64,000 bases of DNA from Trichoplax sp. H2 (lineage: Eukaryota): positions 434,001-498,000 of the forward strand of contig NOWV01000013.1 in the NCBI GenBank assembly GCA_003344405.1. Reading direction: 5' to 3'. The notes beneath the pieces were generated by a model. The model ran no database searches, was not told the origin of the DNA, and saw nothing but the letters and a program-made list of their open reading frames with translations. This document shows, piece after piece, positions 11,001 to 33,309 of the stretch; position 1 is the first letter of the stretch; every line of letters starts with the position of its first letter. A program made the position numbers and the translations under genes.

Positions 11001-12076
11001 ATGACGGTAGTCAGTTTAGTTGCCATTGCTACTGACTCACTGTATTTGTACAGCATTATTGAGCTAGTAGAGCTATAGTATTGTACCCAACTTTATTGTA
11101 ATTATTATTGCCAAGGACCACCTCTTTTCCATTCTTCATTTTATTTTTGTTAATATTGTAAATCATTACATGCGAACAAAAGTTGCATGAATGAATGCAA
11201 TGGGAAGGAAAATAACACAACACCCATTTACGGTACTGTACCAATGTTAGTGCTAAGTAGTTTTGCAGTCAGTACCGTATCTAAAATGGTGGGCAGCATG
11301 AAGAAATGTAACAAGGTTGCAGGGGTTGAGGTAAGCTCTATTGTATTGAATAATTGCATTGCATTTTTGGGCATTGAAATAGTGTACGCATGCATTGCGA
11401 TATGCATTAAGGCAGGGGGGTGTCAAATCATATTATTATCGACTTATCATGTGTACTGTACAGCGGCGATAAATACATACATTAATAATTAGAATAATTT
11501 AGAATAAAAATTTTTGTTCTCGATCGATACAGTACCAGTAGCAACAGCAATCCGACAAGAAAGGACGTTGGTTGTTAACGACTATCGGTGTGAAGAGGAA
11601 TAGATAGTGGTCGATTGTACAACAACTTTTCCATCCATTTGTTCCACATTATCTAGTGGTAGTCATCCCGCTAAAAAGACAACGTTTGAACTGTTTGGTT
11701 ACCGGTACTATCGTTGCTTCTATTCATTTATCCTAGATGTTATCACTCTCGATTGAGAAATTGTCAAATTAGCTGCTGCATGCGTGATTGTTCCTTTTAT
11801 ATCCAAGTACTTGAGCTGATAGGCGTGTAGGTGTAGATTCTACAGCATTTTCACTAAAGTAATCACCGAAGGCATCAATATTGTGACCTTCTATTGCGTT
11901 GAGGCATCGATCGACATTACTGCAACCTCGCAACGGTACAATATTGGCTAATATCAAATAATTTCAACATCTTACTCTACGCTAGACGATTAGTTCATTT
12001 TCAAAGAAGGACAATAAACAGATAAACTAGTCTCCAAATTGACGTTTTTCAATCAATCAAGCCGCAACGAAAAAAG

Positions 12077-15000
12077 ATGGATTTATTGTGCAGTGAGGGT
12101 TTCGAAAAGCAAGCTTATAAAGATCCTGTATTGCAAAAAGAACGTGTTTTACAGAATTTGCTCAAGCTAGAAGAAAATTACCTTCCTAATCGTGACTACT
12201 TCACGAACGTCCAACGTGAAATTAAACCTTTTATGCGATGCATGGTCACTAATTGGATGTTGGACGTAAGTAAATCTGGCTGAAAAATGTTATTTATTAA
12301 TACAGTATCTAGTTCATATTTTAATCGTAGTTTGTCGAAATGGAGTGAAAGCATTATCAGCATCATAAGTGATTATATTATATATTGGTAAGACTTTCCA
12401 TGAAAGGCCGAGCACAGCAGCAGTTTTTCATGCAGCTTTAGATTTGCACGTGTAGAATGTACATATATACTGTAATTATTTTACAACTACCTGTACGATT
12501 CATGGATTACTGCCACTCGATGCTATAGTTTCATAAATTCTCTACATAACGATAGTTTTTTAGGATAAATTGCATATAAAAATTTTATTATTTGCCCGGT
12601 GCATTTCACCTCATGTAGTGGCATTCTCTCCTCGATGCAGCAGCAGAAGCAGCATATTCGAATTCTTATACTGCACTGCATACCTTATCAAATCTTACAT
12701 TTGCACACACTACTCTAGTACCCATTCAGTCAACCGCCTTTTTGGAGAATGATAAGAATTATATCGTTAGATAATGGTATTAATTTTATAGATATGCGTA
12801 GATACCGTACATGTATAGACTTTAATGGTATTAAACGGTACAGTACAAACTGTTATCCGATAATAAAAGGTCTAAATTTAATGGCTGTTGAATTAAATTT
12901 TTTACTAGGTATGTCATGGAGAAAATTGTAACGATAAAGTCTTTCCATTGGCCGTTAATTATTTAGATAGATTTTTATCTATGGTTAGTATCCGTAAAAT
13001 TCGACTGCAATTGGTGGGCAGTGTTTGCTTATTCTTAGCTAGCAAGTTAAAAGATCGTATCCCATTAACTGCTGAAAAATTATGCTCCTGGACCGATTAT
13101 TCAGTTACTTGCCAAGAATTATTGGTAAGTTTTCAAGTATTGTATCGCTACACTTATTTCGATCTGTGTCGGTTGCACTTGCCTACGGTAATAGATTATA
13201 CTTCACAAGTTTTCTTTTTTACCGCATTTTTTATTTCAATATATCATACTGTATCTACCCTATTGATAGTGGTTATTTTTTGTCCTGTATTGAAACACAT
13301 TGACATTGTACGACACAGCTTTTATAAGTGTAGAAATGAGTCATTCTCACACACGTTAACATATATATACAGTATCTATATATAGAGATTAAATTGCTAC
13401 AGTACAATGTATATAGATCCTCGACTATAGAACCATTTCGACAGGCATAGAAACCTTCAACAATTTGACATCCTCGTGTTGCCTGTTGCTATATTTTGCT
13501 TAGAAACGGAAAGCAATTTTTACTAAATCACTACAGCTTTTGAAAGTTTCTCATTTAACGATGAGTAGCATATAATACTTTCGATACAGCTTTCTACTGT
13601 ACTGTAATTAAACTAAATGGTGTTTCACACAATGATGCAGTATATAAAGTCCGTGATTTCGCCATTGAAAGTACATTGAACACTTGATATGATATTAGCA
13701 ACCTACTTCAAGTCATCGCTCCTGAAAGATATTTACTACGAGTTACCATAAATGATATTAAACTGCAATATATGCGTAGATTATGCACTCAATGTAAAAA
13801 ATGTAATCTACAAATGCTTCGAAACCAATGAGGTTGACGGACATAATTGAAGTATTTCGTCACTGTAAACGATGAAATTTAATTACCTATACTGTAATAT
13901 GTATTATTGCTCATCTCTGACCAGAATATATCGTACTACTGTACTTATTTATTTAAAATCCTCTTTAATTAAACGCTTTAAGTGATATTATTATATTGCG
14001 GTTTTTCGTCGATCTAATTTCGAAGAGAAGTCTTACTAAATCGACAGTAGATCTTATTTGACAATCACGATGTCACTTTTTATACATAAAGAGTGGCAAG
14101 ATCTCAAGAATAGCTTTTCTTCTTTGCTCTATTTTTGTTTTAACACAAGTGATTAGTTTCTGATTCTTTGTTTTTGATTATCATTTGTATGCAATCAGTA
14201 AATAAAAAGTTTCCATCACCATACTGTACGTATATGTATATATATAACATTATACTGTAGACATCATATTACACCCGTGATTATTCTGTCAATTTTACCA
14301 TATTAAACCGTATATAATTGTTGAAATCTGCTAAAACGAAAAATCGAAAATATTTAGACCTGCAATCATGCACAATTTAGGATCACTAATATAGCGCGGC
14401 ATCATATCTTGTGATATTGAAATTATTGAATAGAATTTGCTCATGTGTTACTGTACCATAGTTCAAAACTTTAATGATACATTAATACACCCAATTTTTT
14501 TTTGTCTACAAATCGGAGATATGGCAAATTGTTATTTACTGCAATTAGTATAAAATTTATGTCATATCGATAACGCATTGTTCCTCCGCGCATAAATTGC
14601 AGTAAGTATGCATACTCTTGTTTTATTTGTAGCGCTGATCTATTTTATGTATTATCCTTTCCTATTCTATTTTTTTCTCAATCCGTACACAATCGCTTGT
14701 GCCTCATTAAACGTAGCCGTCTTTGTGTCCAGAATAATGCTGAAGTATACATTATAATTATTTATATTTGTTGTCTTTGCTCCCGGCGCTGCCTTAAAGA
14801 ATGTAAAATAAAATGCCACTGCAAATAAGGATCTATACCTATAATCGTTCATAAATTTATCCAGTCGTCAACATAGTAACGTCAACCCAAAGAGGTTTTA
14901 AGTTTTTACATTTCTGTAATACTGCTATCGATAATAATTTAGATATTTACAAACATAATACACTTTGCTAAGTGCTTGATCACGGACTCGTAAAATTTTA

Positions 15001-17184
15001 TTCATCGCACCACTCTTTTATAATGCGAGATCCCTATATTGATACCGTAATTATTATTATTGTAATTATAACAATTCAGTATGATGATAGTTTTGGTGAT
15101 GGTTGCTATTTGTAGATCTGCCCATTAGTATTTAAATACGTTTCACACAAGCTCAGAAAATCTTATAATTTTTAAATGCCTAACATTGGAGATTACTGAA
15201 TGTACGATTCTAGTCGTATTGTCACGAATTCGATCCACTTTTTTACGTTACTTGCGCTTTATAATAAACGTGCGAAATTAAGCGTTGCGCCATAAACTTC
15301 TATAACTGTTATATACTTCCATGTGCAATTTATGCGAGGATATTTTTAAAATTCTGTCTCATTAAGAGTAATTGTGTATCTAGCAAATTACTCCTCCCGT
15401 CTATCGCGATATTAATTAATTTGAGGAGTGGACTTTAGTGCTATAATTTCTTAGTATTGAAGAAACAACTTGTTGATTACAATCATAATCAAATCAACAG
15501 TTATTACTGTATTGCATATAGTCAGCATCGTGGAATATGTACATTGTACAGTATCCATTATAATATTGTATAGGTCATGTAATCAATCCAACGTCATTTG
15601 ATCTAAAGGACCGCTAACAATATCGATGCCCAGCATTGTTATGGAGAACAGGTTATATTCAATTATCGTCAAAAAAACAGAAAGGTCCGCTGACTGGATA
15701 GACACACAGTACTGTACATTAATGCATAATGTAATTCATTAACAATATGTCCGTCACTGTCATCACCTTACATAATTCATAATTGAAGAAATGCATTTAT
15801 AATATATACAGTATATATATATACTGTATTTAATGATTCATAATATTGTAAACTATCAACATTTTTGCAAGGCTTCAAAAATTACTTTCGAACGTTAATT
15901 TTATTCTACGTATATACGACTGTAATCGAATTACGGACTTTTGTTGCCGACAAAATATTGTTGCATATAGTAAACAGGACAATATGACGTACAGTGCTGT
16001 TTAATTGATGTACTGTATGTTCAACGACTTTCTTTGATATTTACCGTAAATGAGAAGTGCCTGATTGCACTATTTTTCTTTTCATGTATTTTAATTACAG
16101 TATCGACCTGTAATTAGACCACTATTATGAAAGTAATTTCTTACGCTGACCTTTATTTCGTGTTTTTATTAACGTGTGCCAGAGTGTAACCGGTAGCTGC
16201 AACACTATGCTATTTCATTTCTGTCACGTAAAATTTTAATGCATATTAAATGGGCTTAAAAATATTTTGTCTTCCGGCTGATTATTCATTGATGCATGAC
16301 ATGACAATGCATAGTTACTCTATTGCATGCTGATATCAAGACTACATCTGGATTTGCTTACTGGCATTGCATTCTAGTCTCTAGATTAATGTATAACGTA
16401 ATGTTTATTATGAATGAATTGAAACTAACTATTTTTAAATTTTCTTTTATCTTATTTCACTGTAGGATTGGGAATTACTCTTATTAGAAAAGCTCAAATG
16501 GGATTTGGGCTCAGTTACTCCGCTAGATTTTTTAGATCAAATTCTTTATCGATTGAGTTTTGAATTAAAAGATTATGTTCATATGCTCAAAAAGCACGCA
16601 TATACATTAATTGCATTATGCTGTACAGGTCAGTATATCAAAAAAGATCTCATTCTTGATATCTTTTAATTTTGACGTAAACCTTATTGTATCTGTCAAG
16701 CATTGCTGAACATCCCACTTTTTTTGCTCTTTAGACTTTCAATTGTGTACTAATCCACCGTCAATGATAGCTGGTGGGTGTATCTTATGCGCCTTAGCTG
16801 GTGTCTTACCTCAAAATGACAACTCCATTGCCATAGTTAATCGTATTGTACAGAAAATAACTAGCATTGAACCGGTAAGAACTACTACATTATTGATGGC
16901 TGTGAATGTCCAAAAATACAAGTCCTAAAGAGTAGTTACTGTATTGGACTTTACTATTATTTACTAAAGTAATGCAGCATATATTCAGTAAAATTTTATG
17001 CAATACAATTTCTGATTCTGAGCTCTGCATTTAACAGGATTATTTGATCTGCTGTAAAGAACAAGTCGAAGATCTTTTATCGAAAACCAATTCAAGCCAT
17101 AAAATCGATCAAATCGATGGTGCTAATGGTTACATGAGTGAAACACCGACAGACTTAGACGATATGCAGCATCTTGTAACTTAA
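12077..17184 (+). CDS. CCND: G1/S-specific cyclin D
   Basis: Five exons: 12077-12265, 12909-13124, 16466-16628, 16735-16874, 17038-17184 (TAA). N-terminal LxCxE (LLCSE); cyclin box [17 protein letters not shown]...[13 protein letters not shown]...[16 protein letters not shown]...[14 protein letters not shown]-terminal ETPTD degron. AATAAA at 17897. Confidence 0.97.
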
Positions 17185-19529: not shown

Positions 19530-21140
19530 TTCATCCTCCAGTCTATCAACCTAGTCAAAACAGAAGACTACAGTAAAAGTGATGCCACTATAATACCATT
19601 AGAATGCTGTCTACAAGTGACAATTATTTTTTCCCCTATACTGTAGTCATCACTTTCTGCTACAGTAATCCCAGTGTTCAACTAAACAGAGTTTATACGA
19701 GTGACTACTGACAGTCACTGACCCATCCAGTTTATCAACCTAGTCAAAACAGAAGACTACAGTACAGTAAAAGTAATGTCACTATAATAGCATTAGAATG
19801 CTGTCTACAAGTGACATTTGTTTTTTCCCCTATACTTTAGTCATCACTTTCTGCTACAGTTAATCCCAGTGTTCAACTAAACAGAGTTTATACGAGTGAG
19901 TGCTGACCGAAACTGACTCACTAACTTATTCACTCTATCAACCTAGTCAAAACAGCACATGATAGTAAAAGTGATATTACTATAATATCATTAGAATGCT
20001 GTCTACAAGTGATATTTGTTTTTTCCCCTATACTTTAGTCATCACTTTCTGCTACAGTATCCCAGTGTTCAACTAAACAGAGTTTATACGAGTGACTACT
20101 GAAATCACTGACCCATCCAGTTTATCAACCTAGTCAAAACAGAAGACAACAGTACAGTAAAAGTAATGTCACTATAATAGCATTAGAATACTGTCAACAT
20201 GTGACATTTGTTTTGTTCCCTATACTGTACTTTAGTGACAGACTACAGTACAGTAAAAGTAGTGTCACTATAATAGGATTAGAATACTGTCTACATGTGA
20301 CATTTGTTTTGTTCCGTATACTGTACTTTAGTGATAGACTACAGTACAGTAAAAGTAATGTCACTATAATAGCATTAGAATTCTGTCTACAAGTGATATT
20401 TGTTTTTTCCCCTATACTTTAGTCATCACTTTCTGCTACAGTAATCCCAGTGTTCAACTAAACAGAGTTTATACGAGTGACTACTGAAATCACTGACCCA
20501 TCCAGTTAATCAACCTAGTCAAAACAGAAGACAACAGTACAGTAAAAGTAATGTCACTATAATAGCATTAGAATACTGTCTACAAGTGACATTTGTTTTG
20601 TTCCGTATACTGTACTTCAGTGATAGACTACAGTACAGTAAAAGTAATGTCACTATAATAGCATTAGAATACTGTCTACATGTGACATTTGTTTTGTTCC
20701 CTATACTGTACTTTAGTGATATCTACGAGTGACTGCTGAGCGTCACTGACTCATCCAGTTTATCAACCTAGTCAAAACAGAAGACTACAGTACAGTAAAA
20801 GTAATGTCACTATAATAGCATTAGAATACTGTCTACAAGTGACATTTGTTTTGTTCCGTATACTGTACTTCAGTGATAGACTACAGTACAGTAAAAGTAA
20901 TGTCACTATAATACCATTAGAATACTGTCTACAAGTGACATTTGTTTTGTTCCGTATACTGTACGTTAGTGATATCTACGAGTGACTGCTGAGCGTCACT
21001 GACTCATCCAGTTTATCAACCAAGTTAAAACACAAGTGTACAGTGTAGAAACAGTACGTGTCAGTGGTGACCACTGACCCTCAGTAAAAGTAATGTCATT
21101 ATAATACGATCAGAATGTTGTCTACAAGTGACATTTATTT
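19530..21140. repeat. Higher-order tandem repeat (satellite-like), about 190 bp units with about 96 bp sub-units
   Basis: The core CAGTAAAAGTAATGTCACTATAATAGCATTAGAATACTGTCTACAAGTGACATTTGTTTT occurs about 11 times. The junction TATCAACCTAGTCAAAAC has its CTAG at 19551, 19740, 19943, 20130, 20515 and 20768, with a variant at 21021. Confidence 0.95.
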
Positions 21141-21335
21141 TTCGCGTATGCTTAAGTGGTAACTTGCTAGTACAGTTAACCAGATGCGAAACTAAACACA
21201 GTTGATACGGTATAGTACTGGTGGTGGCGTGCTGAGCGTGTCGTGCACACAGTACTTCAACTGTCTTTTACAAGTCCCATGATCTTCCTCTTCAGTACCA
21301 GTTACACAAACTTCTCGAAGAAGGCGTTTAGCAAG

Positions 21336-24300
21336 ATGTGGCGAGCTGGTGTGGATACCAAATTTTCGACTACAGAAAGCCCTGAAGATGACGACTGGGA
21401 AACTGATCCTGATTTCGTAGTAAGTATTGTATATTAGTTATGATAGTTATACTATAAATTATGGAATTGACATTAGCACAGTGACTGTTGTGTAAGAAAG
21501 TTGCAATTCCATTGCGCTAAAACTGCCCGGTACTGTACGCATGAACGATGGTAAGTAGTTATGATGAAGTAGACGACTAGAGAAGAGCGACAATTCTTAC
21601 ACAGTACTTTCATCACTGGATGCAATTCGACTTCGAAAACTTGAGTATTATACTTGTCTAATGTATAGTTTGCAATGCCATTCTTAAAGTATGAATCCTA
21701 CTCATTTATACGTATACTGTTACGCAGTGTACAGAGATGATGGAGTTGTTCTACAAGTTGAAGCATTGTTATTCACTTCCTGGGTTACAACATGGTTAGA
21801 CCTGAGGATATTATGATGCATACGAGTTTATCCACTAGTCTATCATCCATCAATTTGTAGACGGTACTGGGATAAAAATTGCCCTTTTTGATCAATAAAG
21901 TGATGAAGACTTCATGTTAGTCAGTAGCAGTACAGAGAGTCATTACTCTATAGTGATTTGTTTTGAAACTAAACTGGGATTATGTGTACAATTTCCCATC
22001 TCTATTATTGACTGTACACGTACGAGTATATTCTAATCAATGGGAGTAGTAATAAAGTGATCAAGAGTACTGTACAGCTAGTCGGCTTTTCATAGTTGTC
22101 CCTTGAAACATTATACTACATTACATCTTAGTCATTGGGAGTACCAATAGTTACTTTTCTTTACTTATAAGTATACATTGATACTAAATTGGGATTATGT
22201 GTAAGAATTAGGCGTACTGTATACTCGGTCAGCAAGGACACAAAGTATCACGAGCACTTACTCTGTACAGTCAATCGGATTTGTATATAAATGGTCAGCC
22301 TTTCATAACTACAGTACGTTTTGTTACTAAATCAGACATAGACTACGTGTAGAACTTTCTATTGCCTACTGTACCTTACGTTTGTTTATATGCTAGTCAA
22401 GATAAGTGCAGTAGCCAGCTTGTGATAGTTATACATTTTGATATCAAGCTGTACGTCTACTATGTAATTTCCTGTTCCCCACCACAATATATACCAAGCC
22501 TTCCAATTAATATGTTCAGTTAGGGTTAGGGCAATACTACCGGTTTAGGAAGCGATGTTGTCTTCTAATAACTATAATGCGACAAGTATTAGCTGCAAAG
22601 GCTTGCACTAACTAAATACTGAAGTTAACGCAATACTGAAGTAGCAAGTCGAGCTCTAAGGCGTACATAGTTGTAGATGTAGCCATATTTTGCGGTGTTG
22701 CATTCGTAGATCTGTCAAAATTAATACCATTGCTAAGTACGAAGTCGAAAAGGTACTTGCCCAAGACTTGGCTACAATTTACAGTATTATAATGTACAGT
22801 TGCCAAAGTTAGTACCATTATTAAGTGACAAGTCGAATAGGTACCTACTACAGAACATAACAAAATACTAGGTTATACAGTTGCAGATCCGGCCACTATT
22901 TCCAGTCTTATAAATTTACAATATTGTTCCACTCATTGCTTAGACTTTACTACCGCTGGCTCGTTTTACATTATTAACACATTACGATCAAGTACTTCTA
23001 TCATACAAACTAATTTTTTCTCCCCTGTTTATTTTTACACTTTCTAGAACGATGTTACTGAGGAAGAGCAGCGGTTCGGATCCAAAACAGTCGAAGGTTC
23101 TGGTTCACAGCGAGTCCTCGAGTGAGTTCTACTCTTACATACAAAGCACAGTATTTTTTATAATACAGTACGTTTCCCAAACTACCAGATGAATGAACCT
23201 AAGACTGACATTTAATTGTTTACTTGCAACAAACCGCCATGTATAGTATTGATCTTCAACGTGTCTTTGATATAACATGAAATAGTTAACAGAATCATCA
23301 TGTTATCTTCCTAAGTAATTTATCTTTAAATGATAGAAGAATATTGTCAAAACAAGATTTAACTTTGTCATTACCGTATATTGTATTTCATGTATTTGCA
23401 TGTGATATTCCCTGAAACACACTTTACTCATAATAGCGTAGATCAACTTAACATCTTAAGGTGCTCTACTTTAGTATAAAGCTATATTAAAAATTATGTT
23501 ATTTTCTTTACAGCATGAATAAACTGAGAGATGATGTTAAGGACTCTGATAAGAAGAGTAAGGAGGGTAAGTTATTCCATGTAACGTTAATAATGTCGAT
23601 AGGGTGATAAAATTTTTCATTCTTAAACTTTAAACTTTTTTAAATATCTATCTTTCATTTTATACATACATGTATATAGCTCAAGGGTATCCTGAAAGAC
23701 TATCAAATCCATCTTACTCTTTTGATATAATACTTACACCTACTCACATATTTCCATTGGAGCAAAGTTATTTGTAGTTAATGTACTCAATATCTAGTTT
23801 GAAACTGCTCAAACTACTACTATATATGAAAGGTTTTTAAAACTTGTACTTGCTGGTTGTAACTTCGAATTTTAATAGGAAACAGAATTCTGCCAATATT
23901 CATGTGATCAGTTCTTGTACAGGCGTACCGGTAGCTAGTTTCGTTATATTTTCATTATCCTGCGGCACTAAATTTTTTATTCTAGTTGTTTTGCCTTTCT
24001 TTTGAGACTGGAGTTAATTCATAAATAATAGTTTACAAAAGTTGTCAGCTTAACTGAAGTATATTAGACCTAAATACAGCTACGGATACGGCGGACAATT
24101 TGGCGTACAAAAGGACCGTATGGACAAGGTAATACGTTGTTTATATTATTATATATTATCATTAATTGTAAGTTTATTTAAATCATTGTAGGTATCGGAT
24201 ATGTTGTCGTAATGAAAGCAATTAGTTTAGGCTGCTTAATTTGATAACACAAACTATCTTATCTAATAATTTCTATAGCTATTCACTTTATCATATTGTA

Positions 24301-27300
24301 ACACTTAGTATGCATAGCCTTAAATAATAATCTTCTATAATCTCAATTATAATTATCATTACTTTACCAGTTTACCGTCATAGTAATCATATACGAATAT
24401 GACTATAGCCTATAATCTATTTTATTTATTGATTGAGTAGAGTGCGGTCAGTAACTCGTATCAGTATGTACCGGAAAAGCATTCATCTCAAACTGATTTT
24501 AAGCAAGGATTTGGTGGAAAATTTGGGATACAGAAAGATCGCCAAGATAAAGTACGTAAAATCATAGCTTAATGAAGTCTTTATACTAAGGTCTAGTAGT
24601 TACTTTAAGAAATTATAAAAAAGATGTCCTTTTATAGTCTGCAGTAGGCTACGACTATTCGGAGAAAACGGCACTGCATTCATCCCAAAAAGGTAGCTTT
24701 TATGGAAATAATAAATATGATAAATGCTGAATGATTCTTGGATAAGTATAAATATACAAAAAATTACAAAATGCTTAGTGCAACCCATCATTAATTACAA
24801 TACATAATACTTTAGCTGAATTGATTTATAAGTATTGCTTTTCTTTTAGTATCGTGTATTTAGAAGTAGTTGATATTTTCATTGCCAATTTATACTGTGT
24901 GTGAAAATGACGTTTGCAAAGGTCAAGTGTCATAAGATTCTTAAATTTATTATTATTATTATTATTATTTCTTCCTAGATTATTCTAAAGGTTTTGGAGG
25001 TAAATTTGGTGTTCAGAATGATAGACAAGATAAGGTTAGCAGATCTGATATAGCTTTATACTTAGTCCTGCAATTACATCAAAAATTATAAGAAAGATGT
25101 TTTGTTATAGTCTGCAGTAGGTTTCGACTATACGGAAAAAACCGCGTTGCATTCATCACAAAAAGGTAATAATATCAAATAATAATAAGTGGTAATTATT
25201 TAAAAAAATGTAAATAAGCAAAAAACTTATAAAACGGCTAGTGAAATCATTATTCGTTGCATTAGAATAGTAGTTTAGCTGAATTGATTTATTACCCTTT
25301 CTTTTTATGTATAACTCAGAGGCGGTTAATATTTTCTTGCCAATCTATGCTATTTACAAAGATTGTGTTTATAGTACTAATAAATTATTACCATTTCACA
25401 CCAGATTATTCCAAGGGCTTTGGAGGAAAATTTGGAGTTGAGAAAGATAAACAAGATAAGGTTAGTAAATCTGTTGAGAATTTGTACATAAGTCCAGTGG
25501 TAACATTAATAAACTGTAAAACAACTACTTTGTTATAGTCTGCTGTAGGTTTCGACTATGCGGAGAAAAATGCATTGCATTCATCCCAAAAAGGTAGTTA
25601 CTTGATATCTAAATAAATGGTGCTTATTTTGGATAGATAAATATTTAAAAGATAATAAAATGGTAATGCAGTCATCATTCATTGCAACGGTAGTAATAGT
25701 TAGCTGAATTGGCTTATAGCTATTCTATTTAGTGTATAGTATTAGAAGTAATTCATATGCCCTTTACCAATCTAGTATATTGTCTACGAGAATGATTTTA
25801 AAAGATTAAGAACTGTAAAAAATTGTTATTATTTTAAACCAGATTATTCCAAGGGCTTTGGAGGGGCATTTGGTGTTGAAAAAGACAAACAAGACAAGGT
25901 TAGCAAATCTGCTAGCGCAGTTAAGCTTTTCAACTTTTAATTGTGGCATACAGAAATGAAATAGGATAAGCTTGATATTTGCGATACTAGAAATACTTAA
26001 GATCGTCCATTCTGACCATTGATTTGTAGTCCGCCGAAAGCTGGAGTTACGTCGGTAAATCCGAACTTCATCAATCTCAAAAAGGTTTAGTGTATAATTT
26101 ATTATAAAAACAGTACGATTTCTATCCTAATATGCACTGAAAATATGTGCTCACAGAATTTAGAATTTATTGCTTCAAATCTTTGGGTAGATATAGCTCT
26201 ACAAAGAAGTGATGTAATACTAGATATTTACCTGCTTATGATTTTATTACAGCCCACTTAGCTGCAATTACGAATACAAATTCCAATAGTTTTATTTATG
26301 GCTAATACTGTTTATCGTTACTAGACTACTCGAAAGGTTTCGGAGGCAAATTTGGAGTAGAAACTGAAAAGCAAGATAAAGTAAGGATTATTTAGCTCGG
26401 TATTTCATCATATAGAATGACTTCTGTGTCAGTCTAGAAGTTTTATTATGTAAACTGTGCTTTACTATCTGGTGTAAATTACATGATTATTTACATTTTA
26501 TTACCTAGTCAGCTAACACGTCACAGTTTGATACAATTTTTCTTCGTCAATCATTACAAGCTGCTATCATTCTTTAATTTATATCCTCAATTTTTTTGTA
26601 GTCTGCCGAAAATTGGAGTTACGTTGGAAAGAATGAATTACATGAATCTCAAAAAGGTTTCACATCCTATTATTTAAACTTCGTATTTTTTGGTTCTTAA
26701 TAAGCTGATTGTACTACTACACAGTTACAACGATAGTAAAATAGAATTGTCATTAAATGTACAATATTATGATACACTCTAATACTTTACCTTCATTTAT
26801 GGTAAGATTACTCTCGCGGTTTTGGAGGAAAGTTTGGTGTTGAAAGTGATAGACAAGATAAGGTATGGTAATGCTTTATATTTTAGTAGTTGTCTTGGGA
26901 GCTAATTTCTATTCATTTATTGCACCCCAGTCTGCACATAGATTTGAAGAAGTCACTAAATCTGAATTGCATTCATCTCAGAAAGGTAGGTATCGTACTT
27001 AAGCGTAACTACGATTAAAGTATAATTATAATAAAACTAGCGTGAAGATAGCACGTAATACGTATGTCTTTCCCGTTAAGATTATTCGAAAGGTTTCGGT
27101 GGAAAATATGGAGTAAGTGAGCAAGGATCGACGGAGGTAAGTTTACGGACTACAAAGTTTTATAATTAAATTGGATGGTTGACTTTAGACACAGTACATG
27201 AACGTCTTTGCTTATTAATTTCTTCTCGAACTAATCTTATTTAAAATTATGTACATACTGTATAATTAGCAAAACTCTGATCCCGAAACTGCTACTACAA

Positions 27301-28980
27301 CAGAAACACAAACTACACACAAAGGTTATAGATTTATAACTTACCCTTTCAATAAATAATTATATTTTGCGATAATTCGTTACTGTACTATAATTGTTAA
27401 TAATCAAGCTATATAGTAGTAAAATTGTGTAATGCTTTTAATATATTTAAACCAAAGTGTTAATCTAACATCGTAATGCAGTTAAAAATCTTACCGCCTT
27501 CCATGCGAGCTGATTACTTTATAAAATTCCATACCCATAGATATTCGATATCTTTAGGTTATAAACGCTTGTAGCTATTTTGTCATATAATATTTATCTT
27601 CGTTTGATCATTAACAGTTGATATAGTCCCTGGATCTTTAAGTAATTTACGCAAACGTTTTGAAAAGAATGCGGTAAGTACATAAAATGGTAATAAAAGT
27701 ACTTCATGATCTATCTTTCCCACTTACAAATGCATACTTTACTCCGCGATTGGATATTTACGGTCATTTAGCAGGTAATCGTTTTCGATCACAAAAAACA
27801 TACACAACTAGGCTAACAATACAGTAACATGCGTGATATTGTGACATAATACCAATCTAAGAACACAATGGAGCATGCGTTGGATTATTACTACTGAGTT
27901 TTAAGTGAATTCGCAAATAGCTAGCACAATTATTAGCAACTCTAGAGCAGAAAAGTTTATTGAAGGTCGTTTAAGCAGCAACAAACGTACGGAACTATCC
28001 AGTCTCTGAATAGCGTAAATGTATAGTACTGTTTGAAGCCTCGCTAATTATATGCCTTCGTGCAGTACTTGCTTTATCTGAATAGTGTAATGGCTTTTGC
28101 CTAGACCGCAGCATCTGAAGCCTATTCTTTTGTAGCAGCTGATTTAACATCGTATCAATACTGATGATGAAAGTAAATTTTTAAATCGTCCTTATACCAT
28201 TTGAATTTAAGGAAGAAGAAGTCAAAACGGAAGCTGAAAGATCCATAGAATTATCTAACAATCCCGAAGCCACTCAGGCCGAAGTTAGAACTTAGTCGTT
28301 AGATTATTTCATCTTCTTTTATCTGTATACATCATTCAAATCGGGCTAAATGATTGCATTTTGGAATAATAGACGTCAACATCTGTAAATGAACAAAACG
28401 AGGCTCCAGAATGTGATCAGCATCAAATAGACCAACAGCAAGAACTACAAGCAACTCCTGAACAACCTCCTTCCAACGTTAGTGACGTAATGAAAATACA
28501 TGTTACCTACTTTTTTATCAACTTATTATCTTATAATCTAAAATGCTAAGAACTTAAACATACGCGTATAGCTATAGAAAACCATCCTAACGCCAGATTA
28601 CTACCTAATATTCACTTTATCAGGAATCAGATGAAATGGTTAAACCCCAAGAGGCTGCAGCAGATGCTAAAATAACAGCAAAAGTTATTTACGACTACTC
28701 AGCAGGTCTGCTTAATAATGATATCTAACTCTTAATACAGTACTTTAGTATATACAAATGTTAAGATATATATGTATATATATTGTAAACGTTCTTGCAT
28801 AGACAACTAACAATAATATAATTACTGATTAATTATATGCAAGTAGCTGATGACGACGAAATCTCATTAGTCATTGGAGAGACCGTCTCTAACATTTCAG
28901 TAATAGACGAAGGATGGTGGTATGGAGAATGCAACGGCAAAAAAGGAATGTTTCCGGCAAATTATGTTGAAACTATCTAA
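21336..28980 (+). CDS. CTTN: Cortactin (NTA domain, about 7.5 cortactin repeats, helical region, SH3)
   Basis: Exons: 21336-21419 (MWRAG...[12 protein letters not shown], Arp2/3-binding DDW), 23048-23121, 23514-23566, [23680-23686 microexon], 24068-24128, 24441-24551; 55/56-nt pairs 24638-24692, 24979-25034, 25111-25165, 25405-25460, 25539-25593, 25843-25898, 26030-26084, 26325-26380, 26602-26656, 26807-26862, 26931-26985, 27081-27136; then 27270-27324, 27618-27673, 28212-28283, 28373-28477, 28624-28705, 28847-28980 (TAA). Repeats read [21 protein letters not shown]3 reads [17 protein letters not shown]...IDEGWWYG...GMFPANYV. Confidence 0.97.
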
Positions 28981-30084
28981 TAATTTTTGATAGGACGTAA
29001 CACTTATGTTGATTAGTCTGATTAATTATTAAATATTAATGCGACAAAATAGAGAGCACTATTTTTTTGTGCGACAAATAGTATAGTACAATAATAATAG
29101 TTTACGTAATTTTACGTTTAGTGGAATATGTTTTGATTACATTACCTGAAATAGAACAGTTAAAAAAGTCAGATTAGCTTCGACACCGTATAGTTTTGAT
29201 TATCTTTTATATTTTAATGAATTTATACAGTATATCATTATATCACTTTATGATCCATATTCCGATATTGATGAACAATGATCACAACAAACATTAACAA
29301 ATACAACGTAAATACATACTGGCTGAAATACACGTTACGTAGTGCGAGTTACTAACAAAATTCGGCTTGGTTCGCTCAAGTAAGAGTTATAATTATAGCA
29401 TGTTCGTATCGTACTGCAGAAATCTGATCACTATGAATTAGGATGCGGTATGAGTTCGAAGAAATAGTTTAAATAGTAACGTACGTAGGTAGCTATACAG
29501 TACAGTAAACCACTAGATTAGATAATATAATATCAACATTACAATAGAAATCGTAAAAGCTATTTCATTTTTGCCTTGCTTACAATCCAACCGTGTTGTA
29601 CATCTCATACATATACCTTGTACCATGTATACAATGTGTATCAAAATACAACTTTTTACTAACAAATAAAAGAAATCTTTAACTTCTTTAATATTCGTTT
29701 TACCTCGATTTCACTTATTCAGTGTTGTCTCATCAGTAAGGTAGATATATTATACATTATAAAAGTACAAATTCAAAAGATGATAATCCTTTATACCGTT
29801 ATTACAGTAAATTATTCCTGGTCTTCATCTATAATACATTCGAAGAATAGTATGTGTGGAAGCAGTAATTCGAATATCAAGGAAATACGACTAGTCAAGA
29901 TGAACTCATTGTCGTCTTTAAGATAGCACAGAGTAGCATAAGTCATTCGCAAAACCAAAAAGCAGATCATATGGAAAACAAATGTATTGATTTTAATTTG
30001 CGATAACTTATCTAATACGGACAAATACCATACCCCTAATAATAAAGCAAACGCCAATGTAGTACTCCATTTATTATTATATTA

Positions 30085-33000
30085 TCAACCAATAAAATTC
30101 TGCACAATAAGCTCAATTGGTCTGCGACAAATTGGGCATTTTTTCCGTCTACGACGTAACTTTTCCGCACAATTGTAACAACAAACTTGATGACCAATAC
30201 CTTCATTTATATGAATAATACTTGCCGATCTCGGCTCAGAAAGGCAAATCATGCACATTCCATCAACAGTACTCAATCTCTTGTTTGACGCCGACTTGTA
30301 CCTTTTAAGCTGACGTGATATTTTGCAATGTTTCTTCTTCCGTTGCTCCTTCTTTAATCTATTGTTGCGATTATTACTTCTAACAGGTGAATCAATGTGA
30401 CTCTCCGAGCCAGAACTATCTGATTCTTGCCTTAAACTAAAATCTATACTACTATTGGCAGATGTCGAAAGCTCCAAGTCATCATCTTGAGGTATCAAAG
30501 ATAACGTACCGTCATTGGTATCGTCTACAGCAATATCGTCATCACTAGGTAACCAATTTTCACGTAATTTCCAACAAAATGCACAATTACGAGCAATTGG
30601 ATTATTTAACTGTTGGCAATACAAACACTTCCAGTGATCTTTTTCACCAATCTCTGGATCATCATCTCCAATGTTGTCGGCTGAATTTCTTTCATCCTTG
30701 ATGCTCGATATTACTTCGACAACATCCGAAGAAGAACAATTTGAATATCCTGAATTTGGAGCATCGGTTTCACTATCTGTTACTGGTTCCAATTCAAAAG
30801 TTGGATAATTAGTGTCCTCCAATGACCAGTCATTTTCTTCTGGTTCCGAAGCTGTACTGGTCTCATACCCAACGACAGAATCGAGCTGCTGCTGTACTTG
30901 AGCTTTTAATTTTTCTAATACACTAAATAATGTGGGTTTACTACCCTTGGCTACTTCTGTACTATCAGGAATCTCTTCTTTTGTTAATGAATTGTCATAG
31001 TGAGCCTGAGAATTCTGTCTTGATCTCCAGTCAACATTTATGACACTTTGTTCTAAAAAATAAAAAATAATGTCAACAAAATAGCGCTTTCATATCTGTA
31101 TCTAATGAACAAATAATTCTTCAGGTCCAGAATTACTGTATAATAGATAATTCATAAGCGAATTACAAGTTAAGCAAAGTACAGATAAAATTTACATAAA
31201 AGTAATTGAGAAGCGAAACAATAACTGCTTACAACAAGTGTAAAATTGTAAATAAATTCTAAGGATATAAGCATTGTAATTGTGTAACAATAAATACAGG
31301 AAGCGTTATAAAACATCTAAAGTACTGTATAACAGCAGACAAAGGGTTTTTTCGTAAATTTCAGTAGTCTACATATACAACTTCCAATACAGTAGCTTAT
31401 ATCAAGGCAAATTAATAATTATAATACTTGTACTTGTACGATACACAATCATAGCAATGCATTCTGTAACCATTACATAGACTACATAAATTACAAGAAT
31501 GGCATAAAGCTTAAATCAACGCTATACGGTAATATGGAGGGCATAATAAAATTAATCTTGAAATAATGTCTCTCTGTGTATCACTGCTTATCATTATTAA
31601 GAGCGCACTACATGATCACGAGAATGGATAATGATGATTGCACCTAGTACTGCGATGTTACTTTTTCTGAAAACGCAACAAACTTGAACTACGTGTATAA
31701 CGTGACTGATTAAATTTATTTTCTAGAGTAAAAGCTGCTCTACACTTTGTCTCAATATACCGGCAACATTACTAATCACATAAATTACCGTTCGCAACCG
31801 GAACAACCTCTAGATGCATTTTTAGTCGATCCCATAAATTGGCTACCGGAAATTGATCACAAGAAAGTAATTTTTCCAAAGGATCTCCTTTACAATCCAC
31901 ATAATCCGCTCTAAGAGGATTACACAACTTACGGCTAGATATATAATCAATCAGATATTCCATTACCTGCAGATATCAAAATAAGTTATGATTTAATATA
32001 ATTTTTTTTTAAATTCTATTTAATGATTACTGAAGCATTTTTTATCTGGCTAATCAGTGAATTTACTATTATTCGTCAGCAATTTTATGCAAATTCTGAT
32101 TTCTTAATCTATTGCCGTTCAATACACTCGATGTATGATGAATAATATTAAGTAATTAATTGAACCAACTGACCTGTAGAGCTGTAAGTTCTTTACCATT
32201 GACATTTTCTGGAGGCAGAAATTGCATCAATTCGGCATTAGGCTTGACCACCTATAAAAATTGAAAATAGTGTTAAACTTACGAGTACGATACTTACAAA
32301 ATGAATGAGTTAGAGTGCAGTTTAAATTTCACATATTAAAGAAGCACAAAGAAATTGGCATTAACATTGATAGTATTGATTTATGCTATCAGTCAAGATA
32401 TAACAATTGATTAATTTCGAAGGTGAGGTAAAGCCATGAACTATTAAAATTCTATTTATTACTAGATATGACTGCTAAGACCGTAACCTTCGAATGCAGA
32501 ATGCTGATATTTATAACAGCATATTGAAAATTTTGAATGCCTAATGTAGTCTGAAGTAATGAAAGCCATCCACTATATGTAACGGCGTAGAGCAGCTAAG
32601 AGGTCATGCAATAATAGAATCAATGAATTTTGTAGTCATCCTTGGTTTACACGTATACTCGTGACACTTCTATAATACTCTTAATCATATTCTCTATGAT
32701 CATTTTCTATTACATAGTTATCTACTGTACTGTACTGTACAATATCAGGTATTGTTGTTCGGCAAGGAAGGACTTGCGCGAATAACCATACTAATTTGTT
32801 GAACCGGAGTCAAGGCGCATTTACAATGGAGTCGGTGTATGCGATTTATTTTCTTTTTAAGTTTTTCATAATACTATTATTGTCAACTCACTACTTTATC
32901 GACATCAATGAGCTTATTTCAAATGTTGTCCTGTACCATTCGTAGTTTTCCTACTACTGTATTGAAGGATAGCACTATCAAAAGTTCCAATCTACTGTAG

Positions 33001-33309
33001 GTGATTGGCTCAAGCTGACAGACAGACTCGTGGTCATCTTGACTCTTGGTGCAAATATGCGATATTTATTGCACGGTGACATTAACAATTTTCGAAACTT
33101 CTTTCTATCTATGTAACAATTTCATTTTCATCAAAGTAAAGGTGTAGAGTACTTACAAGACGGTCACCATTATAACTGAAAGGATCTCTATCAGAAATGA
33201 CAATGCGATTCTTTTTTATTTCCTCGTTCAATTCTCTGCTTCCATTATCATCCATCTTCTGGTGAAAATTGTCGTTGCATGGAATCGTTGCACTATCACA
33301 ACTTGCCAT
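30085..33309 (-). CDS. MDM2: E3 ubiquitin ligase Mdm2 (single MDM2/MDM4 pro-orthologue), about 458 aa
   Basis: Exons 33309-33157, 32251-32174, 31966-31789, 31052-30085. SWIB/p53-binding domain VVKPNAELMQFL...VMEYLIDYISSRKL...VDCKGDPLEKLL; acidic region; RanBP2-type Zn finger WKCLYCQQLNNPIARNCAFCWKLR; C2H2C4 RING CMIC...H...H...CCYNC...CPIC with a 13-residue tail. Confidence 0.97.

What the first reader, a model, noticed from the sequence alone, without database searches (positions are those of the whole stretch)
23567..24067. 7-nt cortactin microexon followed by a U12-type (minor spliceosome) intron
Seen: the exon ending at 23566 has a perfect donor (GG|GTAAGT, phase 1), but the next clear exon (24068) needs phase 2. 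A 7-nt segment TAG|CTCAAGG|GTATCCTG (23680-23686) fixes the frame and gives [14 protein letters not shown], restoring the GPK that I recall precedes repeat 1 in vertebrate cortactin. The downstream intron starts GTATCCT (U12 consensus GTATCCTT), has CTTAAC at 24049-24054 (branch A about 14 nt from the AG), lacks a polypyrimidine tract and is phase 2, all established U12 hallmarks. Inference: a frame-critical microexon between a major and a minor intron could make cortactin output minor-spliceosome-limited, since skipping frameshifts before the actin-binding repeats. Gene finders would likely miss it by using a weak donor at 23581 or 23586.
Basis: partly seen in the sequence, partly recalled or inferred. 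Interest (0 to 1): 0.75.

Follow-up and report, generated by a model that had tools for sequence, protein, structure and literature searches.

The report
Seven-base cortactin exon beside minor-type intron
In the cortactin gene of the simple marine animal Trichoplax, the reading frame seems to be kept only by a seven-letter mini-exon followed by an intron bearing the signals of the rare "minor" splicing machinery; the sequence evidence is good, but no RNA data could be obtained to prove it.

Summary
The window is Trichoplax: an MDM2-like exon matches T. adhaerens at all but one coding residue. The gene is cortactin (HS1 repeats and SH3).

The exon ending at 23566 (AGG|GTAAGT, phase 1) and the homology-fixed exon starting at 24068 (phase 2) cannot be joined in frame. 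Only 10 single-exon bridges of 60 nt or less exist.

CTCAAGG (23680-23686) is the only realistic bridge that reads Ala-Gln-Gly before Pro-Lys. That fits 56 homologues: G in 30 at that position, against 0-1 for the residues the rival donors give. It is also the only one followed by GTATCCT, the U12 5' splice-site core.

Two "hallmarks" do not discriminate here. Trichoplax U2 acceptors are equally pyrimidine-poor, and U2 branch-like motifs also lie about 14 nt out.

Trichoplax has all the minor snRNAs. RNA evidence was unobtainable.

Verdict: probably real (about 0.8), a new member of known kinds. The regulatory idea is untested.

The parts
21336..21419 (+). Cortactin coding exon 1 (MWRAGV...[11 protein letters not shown]). 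Donor GTAAGT at 21420, phase 0.
   Evidence: tblastn with cortactins P0005 and P0019; flanks read.
23048..23121 (+). Exon 2 ([24 protein letters not shown] + GA). Donor GTGAGT at 23122, phase 2. It fixes the frame of the next exon.
23514..23566 (+). Exon 3 (C + [17 protein letters not shown] + G). It ends in phase 1.
   Evidence: KLR aligns to the KLR of homologues.
23567..23679 (+). 113-nt U2-type intron, GTAAGT...GTATATAG. The donor is the best-scoring GT of the region (9.1). The acceptor scores 1.0, in the lower range of real sites. ATAG acceptors are common in this gene.
   Evidence: matrix from 21 introns of the window.
23680..23686 (+). Candidate 7-nt microexon CTCAAGG. With the flanking bases it reads G|CT CAA GG|A = Ala-Gln-Gly.
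   Evidence: frame restored, [14 protein letters not shown]; one of 10 possible bridges, and the only realistic one giving Gly; fit to the homologue profile.
23687..24067 (+). 381-nt candidate U12-type GT-AG intron, phase 2.
23687..23694 (+). 5' splice site GTATCCTG (7 of 8 of the consensus [A/G]TATCCTT).
   Evidence: It is the only GTATCCT on the + strand between 1 and 45761. The +8 G occurs in 43 of 853 listed GTATCCTN strings.
24049..24054 (+). Branch-site candidate CTTAAC, with A at 24053 lying 14 nt from the intron end. It also fits a U2 branch motif.
   Evidence: The context GCTTAAC is 8 of 469 CTTAAC strings in the minor-intron table.
24066..24067 (+). Acceptor AG. The nearer AG at 24058-24059 is only 6 nt after the branch A.
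24068..24128 (+). Exon with the start of cortactin repeat 1 (A + [20 protein letters not shown]). Donor GTAATA at 24129.
   Evidence: Pfam HS1_rep, E = 5.6e-7; tblastn.
23581..23587 (+). Rival weak U2 donors: GTAACG at 23581 (pairs with the AG at 24058-24059 and gives ...GKLFHYIRPK) and GTTAAT at 23586 (pairs with the AG at 24066-24067 and gives ...GKLFHVTPK).
   Evidence: scores 4.0 and 4.1; both in frame; their residues occur in 0-1 of 56 homologues.
24441..27136 (+). Remaining cortactin repeats (7.5 in all). Most are split into two exons at the same two positions: phase 0 after ...QDK and phase 1 after ...SQK+G.
28847..28977 (+). Last coding exon, carrying most of the SH3 domain. The stop codon follows at 28978.
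   Evidence: Pfam SH3_9, E = 8.8e-12.

Best explanation
This is the cortactin gene of Trichoplax (Placozoa). Between the exon that ends the N-terminal linker (23514-23566) and the exon that starts actin-binding repeat 1 (24068-24128), the pre-mRNA carries three elements:
- a 113-nt ordinary (U2-type) intron, GTAAGT...TATAG;
- a constitutive 7-nt exon, CTCAAGG;
- a 381-nt GT-AG intron of the minor (U12) class, with GTATCCTG at its start and CTTAAC placing its branch A 14 nt before the AG.

The 7 nt supply GCT CAA GG-, so the protein reads ...[15 protein letters not shown]...

Because the upstream 3' splice site and the U12-type 5' splice site are only 7 nt apart, the two introns are most likely recognised by intron definition and removed one after the other. 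Whichever goes first leaves the 7 nt attached to a normal-sized exon (60 or 68 nt).

Every failure gives a premature stop: skipping after 130 codons, retention of the U2 intron after 83, and retention of the U12 intron after 102.

Shown: the motifs, frames and products, and the fit to homologues. Inferred: inclusion in the mRNA, use of U11/U12, and the order of splicing.
For: 1. Frame. Exon 3 is fixed in phase 1 and exon 4 in phase 2 by homology on both sides. The direct join shifts the frame.

2. Few bridges. Only 10 stop-free single-exon bridges of 60 nt or less exist. Besides two 1-nt 'exons', CTCAAGG is the only one that gives Gly before Pro-Lys.

3. Homologue profile. Among 56 homologues with a DWETDP motif and a first GYGG:
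- position -6 is G in 30 and M in 11;
- position -7 is Q in 11;
- position -8 is A in 4;
- P at -5 in 44 and K at -4 in 33.
The rival donors give H-V-T or Y-I-R, which occur in 0-1 of 56 at each position.

4. 5' splice site. GTATCCT directly follows the 7 nt. It is the only copy on the + strand in the first 45 kb of the window. GTATCCTG is an accepted minor 5' splice site: 43 of 853 GTATCCTN strings in supplementary file 1 of Olthof 2019.

5. Branch site. CTTAAC places the branch A 14 nt from the AG. CTTAAC is the commonest branch-site core string counted in that table (469, against CTTGAC 266 and CTTAAT 149).

6. Chance. The joint probability of points 4 and 5, plus a frame-compatible AG, is about 1.6e-5.

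7. Decoy argument. AGG|GTAAGT at 23567 is the strongest donor in the region (9.1, against 4.0-4.1 for the rivals). If a weak donor 14-19 nt downstream were the real one, this would be a frame-breaking decoy.

8. Machinery. Trichoplax has U11, U12, U4atac and U6atac, and U4atac expression has been verified (passages of PMC2655684; PMC2396436).

9. Assembly quality. There is no sign of assembly indels. The other exons modelled (16 cortactin and 4 MDM2-like) are in frame with GT-AG borders.
Against: No Trichoplax cortactin protein or cDNA-derived model turned up in three protein searches.

No second placozoan locus could be fetched. The metagenome scan gave 7 SH3 loci with no cortactin repeats, and the genome-contig scan gave 0 hits.

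The branch motif and the poor pyrimidine tract do not separate U12 from U2 in this genome.

G before CTTAAC is the rarest context in the minor-intron table (8 of 469), and G at +8 occurs in only 5% of GTATCCTN strings.

On a U2 matrix the 4-nt bridge CAAA (23763-23766) scores higher: 1.7 + 6.4, against 1.0 + 4.7.

With the microexon, the DW-to-GYGG spacing is 59, against the usual 62 (35 of 56 homologues; range mostly 58-65).

CTTN and HCLS1 are not in the mouse/human minor-intron tables as held, so the intron is not a conserved mammalian U12 intron.

Two unnamed relatives (P0022, P0023) read ...KEFEAGPKASYGYGG... in one open frame, without an intron at this point.
Confidence: 0.8

Rival explanations
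1. There is no microexon. The major spliceosome uses a weak downstream donor. Either GTTAAT at 23586 is joined to the AG at 24066-24067 (protein ...[15 protein letters not shown]), or GTAACG at 23581 is joined to the AG at 24058-24059 (...[16 protein letters not shown]). The GTATCCT and CTTAAC motifs are then coincidences.
For: Both paths are in frame and open. Weak donors are normal here: 7 of 21 ordinary introns start with GTT, and the rivals score 4.0-4.1 within a training range of -1 to 11. The acceptors score 3.3 and 1.6, also within range. The DW-to-GYGG spacing would be 63 or 64, close to the usual 62-63.
Against: A perfect AGG|GTAAGT (score 9.1) would sit 14-19 nt upstream as a frame-breaking decoy. 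The inserted residues H-V-T or Y-I-R occur in 0-1 of 56 homologues at each position, and the Gly seen in 30 of 56 would be lost. The U12-like coincidence would have to be chance, about 1.6e-5.
Confidence: 0.07
2. A different, U2-type microexon bridges the gap. The best by a U2 matrix is the 4-nt CAAA at 23763-23766 (GGAG|CAAA|GTTATT), giving ...KEAKPKYSYG.
For: It has the highest summed U2 score of the 10 possible bridges: acceptor 1.7 and donor 6.4.
Against: It gives Lys where 0 of 56 homologues have Lys and 30 have Gly. It leaves the GTATCCT 77 nt upstream unexplained. The matrix was built from only 21 introns and discriminates poorly.
Confidence: 0.05
3. The frame problem is an assembly error: one G is missing from the GGG run at 23565-23567. 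With GGGG the exon would end in phase 2 before GTAAGT and join 24068 directly, giving ...KEGPKYSYG through one ordinary 500-nt intron.
For: It also restores Gly-Pro-Lys (one search lists the same peptide for the 1-nt bridges). It needs only one base. The window differs from the T. adhaerens MDM2-like protein at 2 residues, so it may be another assembly or strain.
Against: A 3-base run is not a typical site of homopolymer error. None of the other exons modelled (16 cortactin and 4 MDM2-like) is frame-shifted. The DW-to-GYGG spacing would be 57, shorter than in 54 of the 56 homologues. The U12-like signals would again be chance.
Confidence: 0.04

Closest known systems
U12-type (minor) GT-AG introns, as catalogued for mouse and human in the Minor Intron Database (Olthof et al. 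2019, PMC6717393, supplementary file 1)
   Same: GT-AG ends and a GTATCCT 5' core. The CTTAAC branch core lies close to the 3' end and the intron is not in phase 0. Both GTATCCTG and GCTTAAC occur among listed minor introns (43 and 8 strings).
   Different: The gene is new for this class: CTTN and HCLS1 are absent from the held tables. Both motifs are in their rarer variants. Classification by a scoring program and by RNA was not done.
Microexons (exons of 3 to about 27 nt), as reviewed in PMC13149111
   Same: A very short exon flanked by AG and GT that is easily missed by gene finders.
   Different: The review says most described microexons are multiples of 3 nt and are alternatively included (passage). 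This one is 7 nt, so it must be constitutive to keep the frame, and its donor is of the U12 type. The neural regulator program of bilaterians is not implied.
U11 snRNP-binding splicing enhancer (USSE) of SNRNP48 and RNPC3 (review PMC8329584, passages)
   Same: A U12-type 5' splice-site sequence lies just downstream of a U2-type 3' splice site, so that the two spliceosomes meet across a short exon.
   Different: In the USSE the U12-type sites are not used as donors and they switch on an unproductive isoform. Here the site would be a real donor of the productive mRNA and lies only 7 nt from the AG. The USSE spacing could not be read, because PMC4829294 is not held.
Cortactin / HS1 family
   Same: [12 protein letters not shown] acidic motif, HS1 repeats, a C-terminal SH3 domain and a G-P-K lead-in to repeat 1.
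   Different: There are 7.5 repeats, most split into two exons, and the linker is 3 residues shorter than usual (59 against 62).

Membership tests
U12-type intron | 5' splice site [A/G]TATCCTT at the first intron bases | tested here: met
   GTATCCTG at 23687-23694 matches 7 of 8. The consensus is as given in PMC6259924 (legend). The +8 G occurs in 43 of 853 listed GTATCCTN strings.
U12-type intron | Branch site TCCTTAAC-like, about 10-20 nt from the 3' splice site (the distance range is recalled) | tested here: inconclusive
   CTTAAC is present with its A 14 nt from the AG, matching 6 of 8 of the consensus. However, G precedes it (8 of 469 in the table). Ordinary introns of this window also carry yTRAy motifs at 14-15 nt.
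U12-type intron | No polypyrimidine tract | tested here: inconclusive
   Pyrimidines are 9 of 18 at -20..-3, but 21 ordinary introns here range from 8 to 15 of 18.
U12-type intron | The organism has U11, U12, U4atac and U6atac | tested here: met
   From papers only: passages of PMC2655684 and PMC2396436. The window's own genome is not held.
U12-type intron | Called U12 by a trained classifier (intronIC or a U12DB-type matrix), and removed by the minor spliceosome | not testable with these tools
Microexon | Flanked by usable 3' and 5' splice sites and needed for the frame | tested here: met
   TATAG|CTCAAGG|GTATCC. The frame is open only with a bridge whose length is 1 modulo 3.
Microexon | Present in the mature mRNA | not testable with these tools
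No Trichoplax cortactin protein was found.
Cortactin / HS1 | HS1 repeats plus a C-terminal SH3 domain and an N-terminal acidic DDW motif | tested here: met
   Pfam HS1_rep (E = 2.4e-12 and 5.6e-7) and SH3_9 (8.8e-12). [11 protein letters not shown] was found by tblastn.

The most novel reading that the evidence does not exclude
A constitutive, frame-critical 7-nt exon has its acceptor read by the major spliceosome and its donor read by the minor spliceosome. That would be an unusually tight meeting point of the two machineries: too short for both to sit on it at once, which forces ordered, intron-defined splicing.

If the U12 intron goes first, the tandem acceptors TATAG| and CTCAAG| (6 nt apart, both in frame) could give KEAQGPK and KEGPK isoforms.

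If the arrangement is conserved in other placozoans, it would make cortactin a placozoan-specific minor-intron gene and a natural test case for cross-talk between the spliceosomes.
Probability: 0.6. Interest if true: 0.6.

Novelty: new member of a known kind. Interest (0 to 1): 0.45.

Why it matters
If the arrangement is real, public Trichoplax gene models for cortactin probably mis-join this junction, and a protein with the wrong linker would be used in comparative work on early animal cytoskeleton and synapse-scaffold proteins.

For splicing biology, it would be a natural case of a U2-type acceptor and a U12-type donor only 7 nt apart. That bears on how the two spliceosomes share very short exons and on the order of intron removal.

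It would also add a minor intron in a gene that is not a minor-intron gene in mouse or human, which is useful for tracing gain, loss or conversion of U12 introns near the base of animals.

I found no paper describing a microexon bounded by a U12-type donor in two full-text searches:
- 16 papers hold the terms. I read passages of two (PMC8329584, PMC13149111).
- 16 papers hold the terms. I read passages of a third (PMC4667643).
I did not read the other papers beyond their listings, so this is weak evidence of absence.

Tried and rejected

The window's own genome is not held, so the snRNA genes and other U12 introns of this assembly could not be searched.

Protein searches for an existing Trichoplax cortactin model or transcript returned 9, 14 and 150 listed proteins. 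None contained any of six Trichoplax-specific peptides, apart from the generic [11 protein letters not shown] motif.

A second placozoan locus was sought twice:
- The metagenome scan with the SH3 exon gave 7 loci, all without cortactin repeats.
- An exact 27-nt pattern found nothing in genome contigs.

Earlier notes of this scan had nothing on this genome or on cortactin. Two notes on human U12 introns added nothing.

The polypyrimidine tract and AG-rich acceptor region were rejected as U12 evidence.

A blind scan for U12-like donor/branch pairs was rejected as evidence, because shuffles give about 5 pairs per window. The minus-strand GTATCCT sites at 2245, 2605 and 2918 lie antisense to a plus-strand open frame.

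An ATATCCTT on the minus strand at 31261-31268 lies inside an MDM2-like intron, not at its donor.

An RNA fold of 23540-23720 is no more stable than shuffles (z = -0.75). Rfam found nothing in 21000-29500.

Pfam on five other open frames of the window gave nothing above cut-off.

PMC4829294 (on USSE spacing) is not held.
Full report
**What the window is**

The window is AT-rich (about 32% G+C). A 334-codon open frame on the minus strand (30088-31089) matches the T. adhaerens protein TRIADDRAFT_54791, an MDM2-like RING protein. All residues of the coding part match but one. Its three upstream exons also match, with one further substitution. The window is therefore Trichoplax adhaerens or a very close placozoan.

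On the plus strand lies a cortactin gene:
- exon 1 at 21336-21419, with the [11 protein letters not shown] motif;
- 7.5 HS1/cortactin repeats between 24068 and 27136;
- an SH3 domain ending at 28977.
This rests on tblastn with cortactins from the database and on Pfam HS1_rep and SH3 hits.

**The observation**

Exon 3 (23514-23566) ends AAGGAGG and is followed by GTAAGT. Its frame is fixed from upstream by exon 2 (23048-23121, donor GTGAGT, phase 2). Together they read ...[17 protein letters not shown], which aligns without a gap to the GSG-(8 residues)-KLR of other cortactins.

Exon 4 starts at 24068 and reads (A)CCT AAA TAC..., that is [20 protein letters not shown], an HS1 repeat. Exon 3 ends in phase 1 and exon 4 needs phase 2.

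A direct join runs into a stop after 130 codons. With CTCAAGG (23680-23686) inserted the protein reads ...[15 protein letters not shown]... and stays open through all 17 exons that I modelled (352 residues).

**Which bridge is real**

I listed every AG...GT segment inside 23600-24040 that is 60 nt or shorter, has a length of 1 modulo 3 and has no stop codon. There are 10.

I then compared the peptides with 56 homologues that carry both the DWETDP motif and a first GYGG repeat start. Counting back from GYGG:
- position -6 is G in 30 and M in 11;
- position -5 is P in 44;
- position -4 is K in 33;
- position -7 is Q in 11;
- position -8 is A in 4.

A-Q-G-P-K fits this profile. The 4-nt bridge CAAA gives K at -6, seen in 0 of 56.

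The spacing from DW to GYGG is 59 with the microexon. The usual value is 62 (35 of 56), with others mostly between 58 and 65. The linker is therefore 3 residues short. This is tolerable but is not positive evidence.

**Is the downstream intron U12-type**

GTATCCT directly follows the 7 nt. It occurs 4 times on the plus strand and 3 times on the minus strand of the window, no more than in shuffles (6.1).

A blind search for GTATCCT or ATATCCT followed within 2 kb by CTTAAC-N-AG gives about 5 pairs per shuffled window. As a scan hit it means nothing; what counts is its position.

The position-specific chance is:
- 0.027 expected GTATCCT in the 494-nt interval;
- times 0.33, the share of positions with a frame-compatible, stop-free upstream AG;
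- times 13 of 7077, the share of AG dinucleotides that have CTTAAC with its A 9-16 nt upstream;
- giving about 1.6e-5.

The last factor is too generous to the U12 reading. Real acceptors are enriched for branch-like motifs, and ordinary introns of this window have CTGAC, TTAAT or CTAAT at 14-15 nt. Allowing a ten-fold enrichment still leaves about 1e-4.

In the mouse/human minor-intron table of Olthof et al. 2019 (supplementary file 1, searched as text), the counts are:
- GTATCCTN: T 722, C 62, G 43, A 26;
- CTTAAC preceded by C 377, T 68, A 16, G 8.
Both motifs here are therefore accepted but rarer variants.

The consensus sequences themselves are as printed in PMC6259924 (legend). That U12 introns avoid phase 0, and that the branch-to-acceptor distance is about 10-20 nt, I recall and did not check.

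**What does not discriminate**

I built donor and acceptor matrices from 21 introns of the window whose borders are fixed by homology: 18 in cortactin and 3 in the MDM2-like gene.

Trichoplax sites are weak. Seven of the 21 donors start with GTT, and pyrimidines at -20..-3 range from 8 to 15 of 18. The acceptor at 24067 has 9 of 18 and scores 3.3, mid-range. "No polypyrimidine tract" is therefore not a mark of U12 here.

The rival donors at 23581 and 23586 score 4.0 and 4.1, within the range of real sites. What speaks against them is the perfect AGG|GTAAGT at 23567 (score 9.1). It would be a frame-breaking decoy 14-19 nt upstream of the real donor.

**The assembly-error rival**

One more G in the GGG at 23565-23567 would give ...KEGPK... 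through a single ordinary intron. I could not look at reads. Against it:
- the run is short;
- none of the other exons modelled (16 cortactin and 4 MDM2-like) is frame-shifted;
- the spacing would be 57, shorter than in 54 of the 56 homologues;
- the U12-like signals would be chance.

**The organism can do it**

Trichoplax has the full set of minor snRNAs, and U4atac expression has been verified (passages of PMC2655684). A second screen agrees and notes a variant U6atac 5' splice-site pairing motif in Trichoplax (PMC2396436).

**What I could not get**

- The window's genome.
- Any Trichoplax cortactin protein.
- Any second placozoan locus.

Two unnamed relatives (P0022, P0023) read ...[26 protein letters not shown] in one open frame. 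The introns here are thus not universal.

CTTN and HCLS1 are absent from the held minor-intron tables, while MAPK8 is present. The files may have been cut when stored.

**Mechanism**

The most likely reading is a U2-type intron (113 nt), a 7-nt exon and a U12-type intron (381 nt), recognised across the short introns and removed in sequence. After the first removal the 7 nt belong to a 60-nt or 68-nt exon.

All mis-splicing outcomes give early stops. The gene therefore depends on both machineries, as any minor-intron gene does. A special rate-limiting role is speculation.

A local RNA fold is unremarkable, and no Rfam family lies in the gene.

**Verdict**

I put the probability that the microexon and the U12-type intron are real at about 0.8.

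It is a new member of known kinds: a U12 intron in a new gene, and a microexon. The adjacency is one for which I found no description in print (passages of three papers read).

Noticed in passing
window 12026-17181 (+): A cyclin gene with a Cyclin_N domain (E = 6e-19 for 12909-13130) lies directly upstream of cortactin. From memory, human CCND1 and CTTN are also neighbours on 11q13, so this may be old linkage. That the gene is of the D type is my reading of the sequence and was not tested.
   Followed up: partly
window 30088-33309 (-): An MDM2-like gene of four exons is nearly identical to T. adhaerens TRIADDRAFT_54791. There are two substitutions, one in exon 1 and one in the last exon, which suggests another strain, haplotype or assembly of Trichoplax.
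   Followed up: partly
window 19569-21044: A tandem-repeat array with periods of 96, 253 and 385 nt (73-96% matches) ends about 300 nt before the cortactin start codon. It gives long repeated open frames that are not genes.
   Followed up: partly
window 24441-27136 (+): Cortactin has 7.5 repeats. All but one are split into two exons at the same two positions (phase 0 after ...QDK, phase 1 after ...SQK+G), with very similar intron ends such as GTTAGC...TTATAG. This looks like repeat duplication that included the introns. The exon 24441-24551 is the only unsplit repeat unit.
   Followed up: no
window 23678-23685 (+): Two acceptor AGs lie 6 nt apart (TATAG| and CTCAAG|), and both are in frame. 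If the U12 intron is removed first, use of the second would drop Ala-Gln and give ...KEGPK...
   Followed up: no
window 27137-28211 (+): The exons between the last half repeat and the acidic region were only partly placed. These are a candidate [18 protein letters not shown] exon, and ...[13 protein letters not shown] at about 27618-27673. The C-terminal half of the gene model is incomplete.
   Followed up: partly
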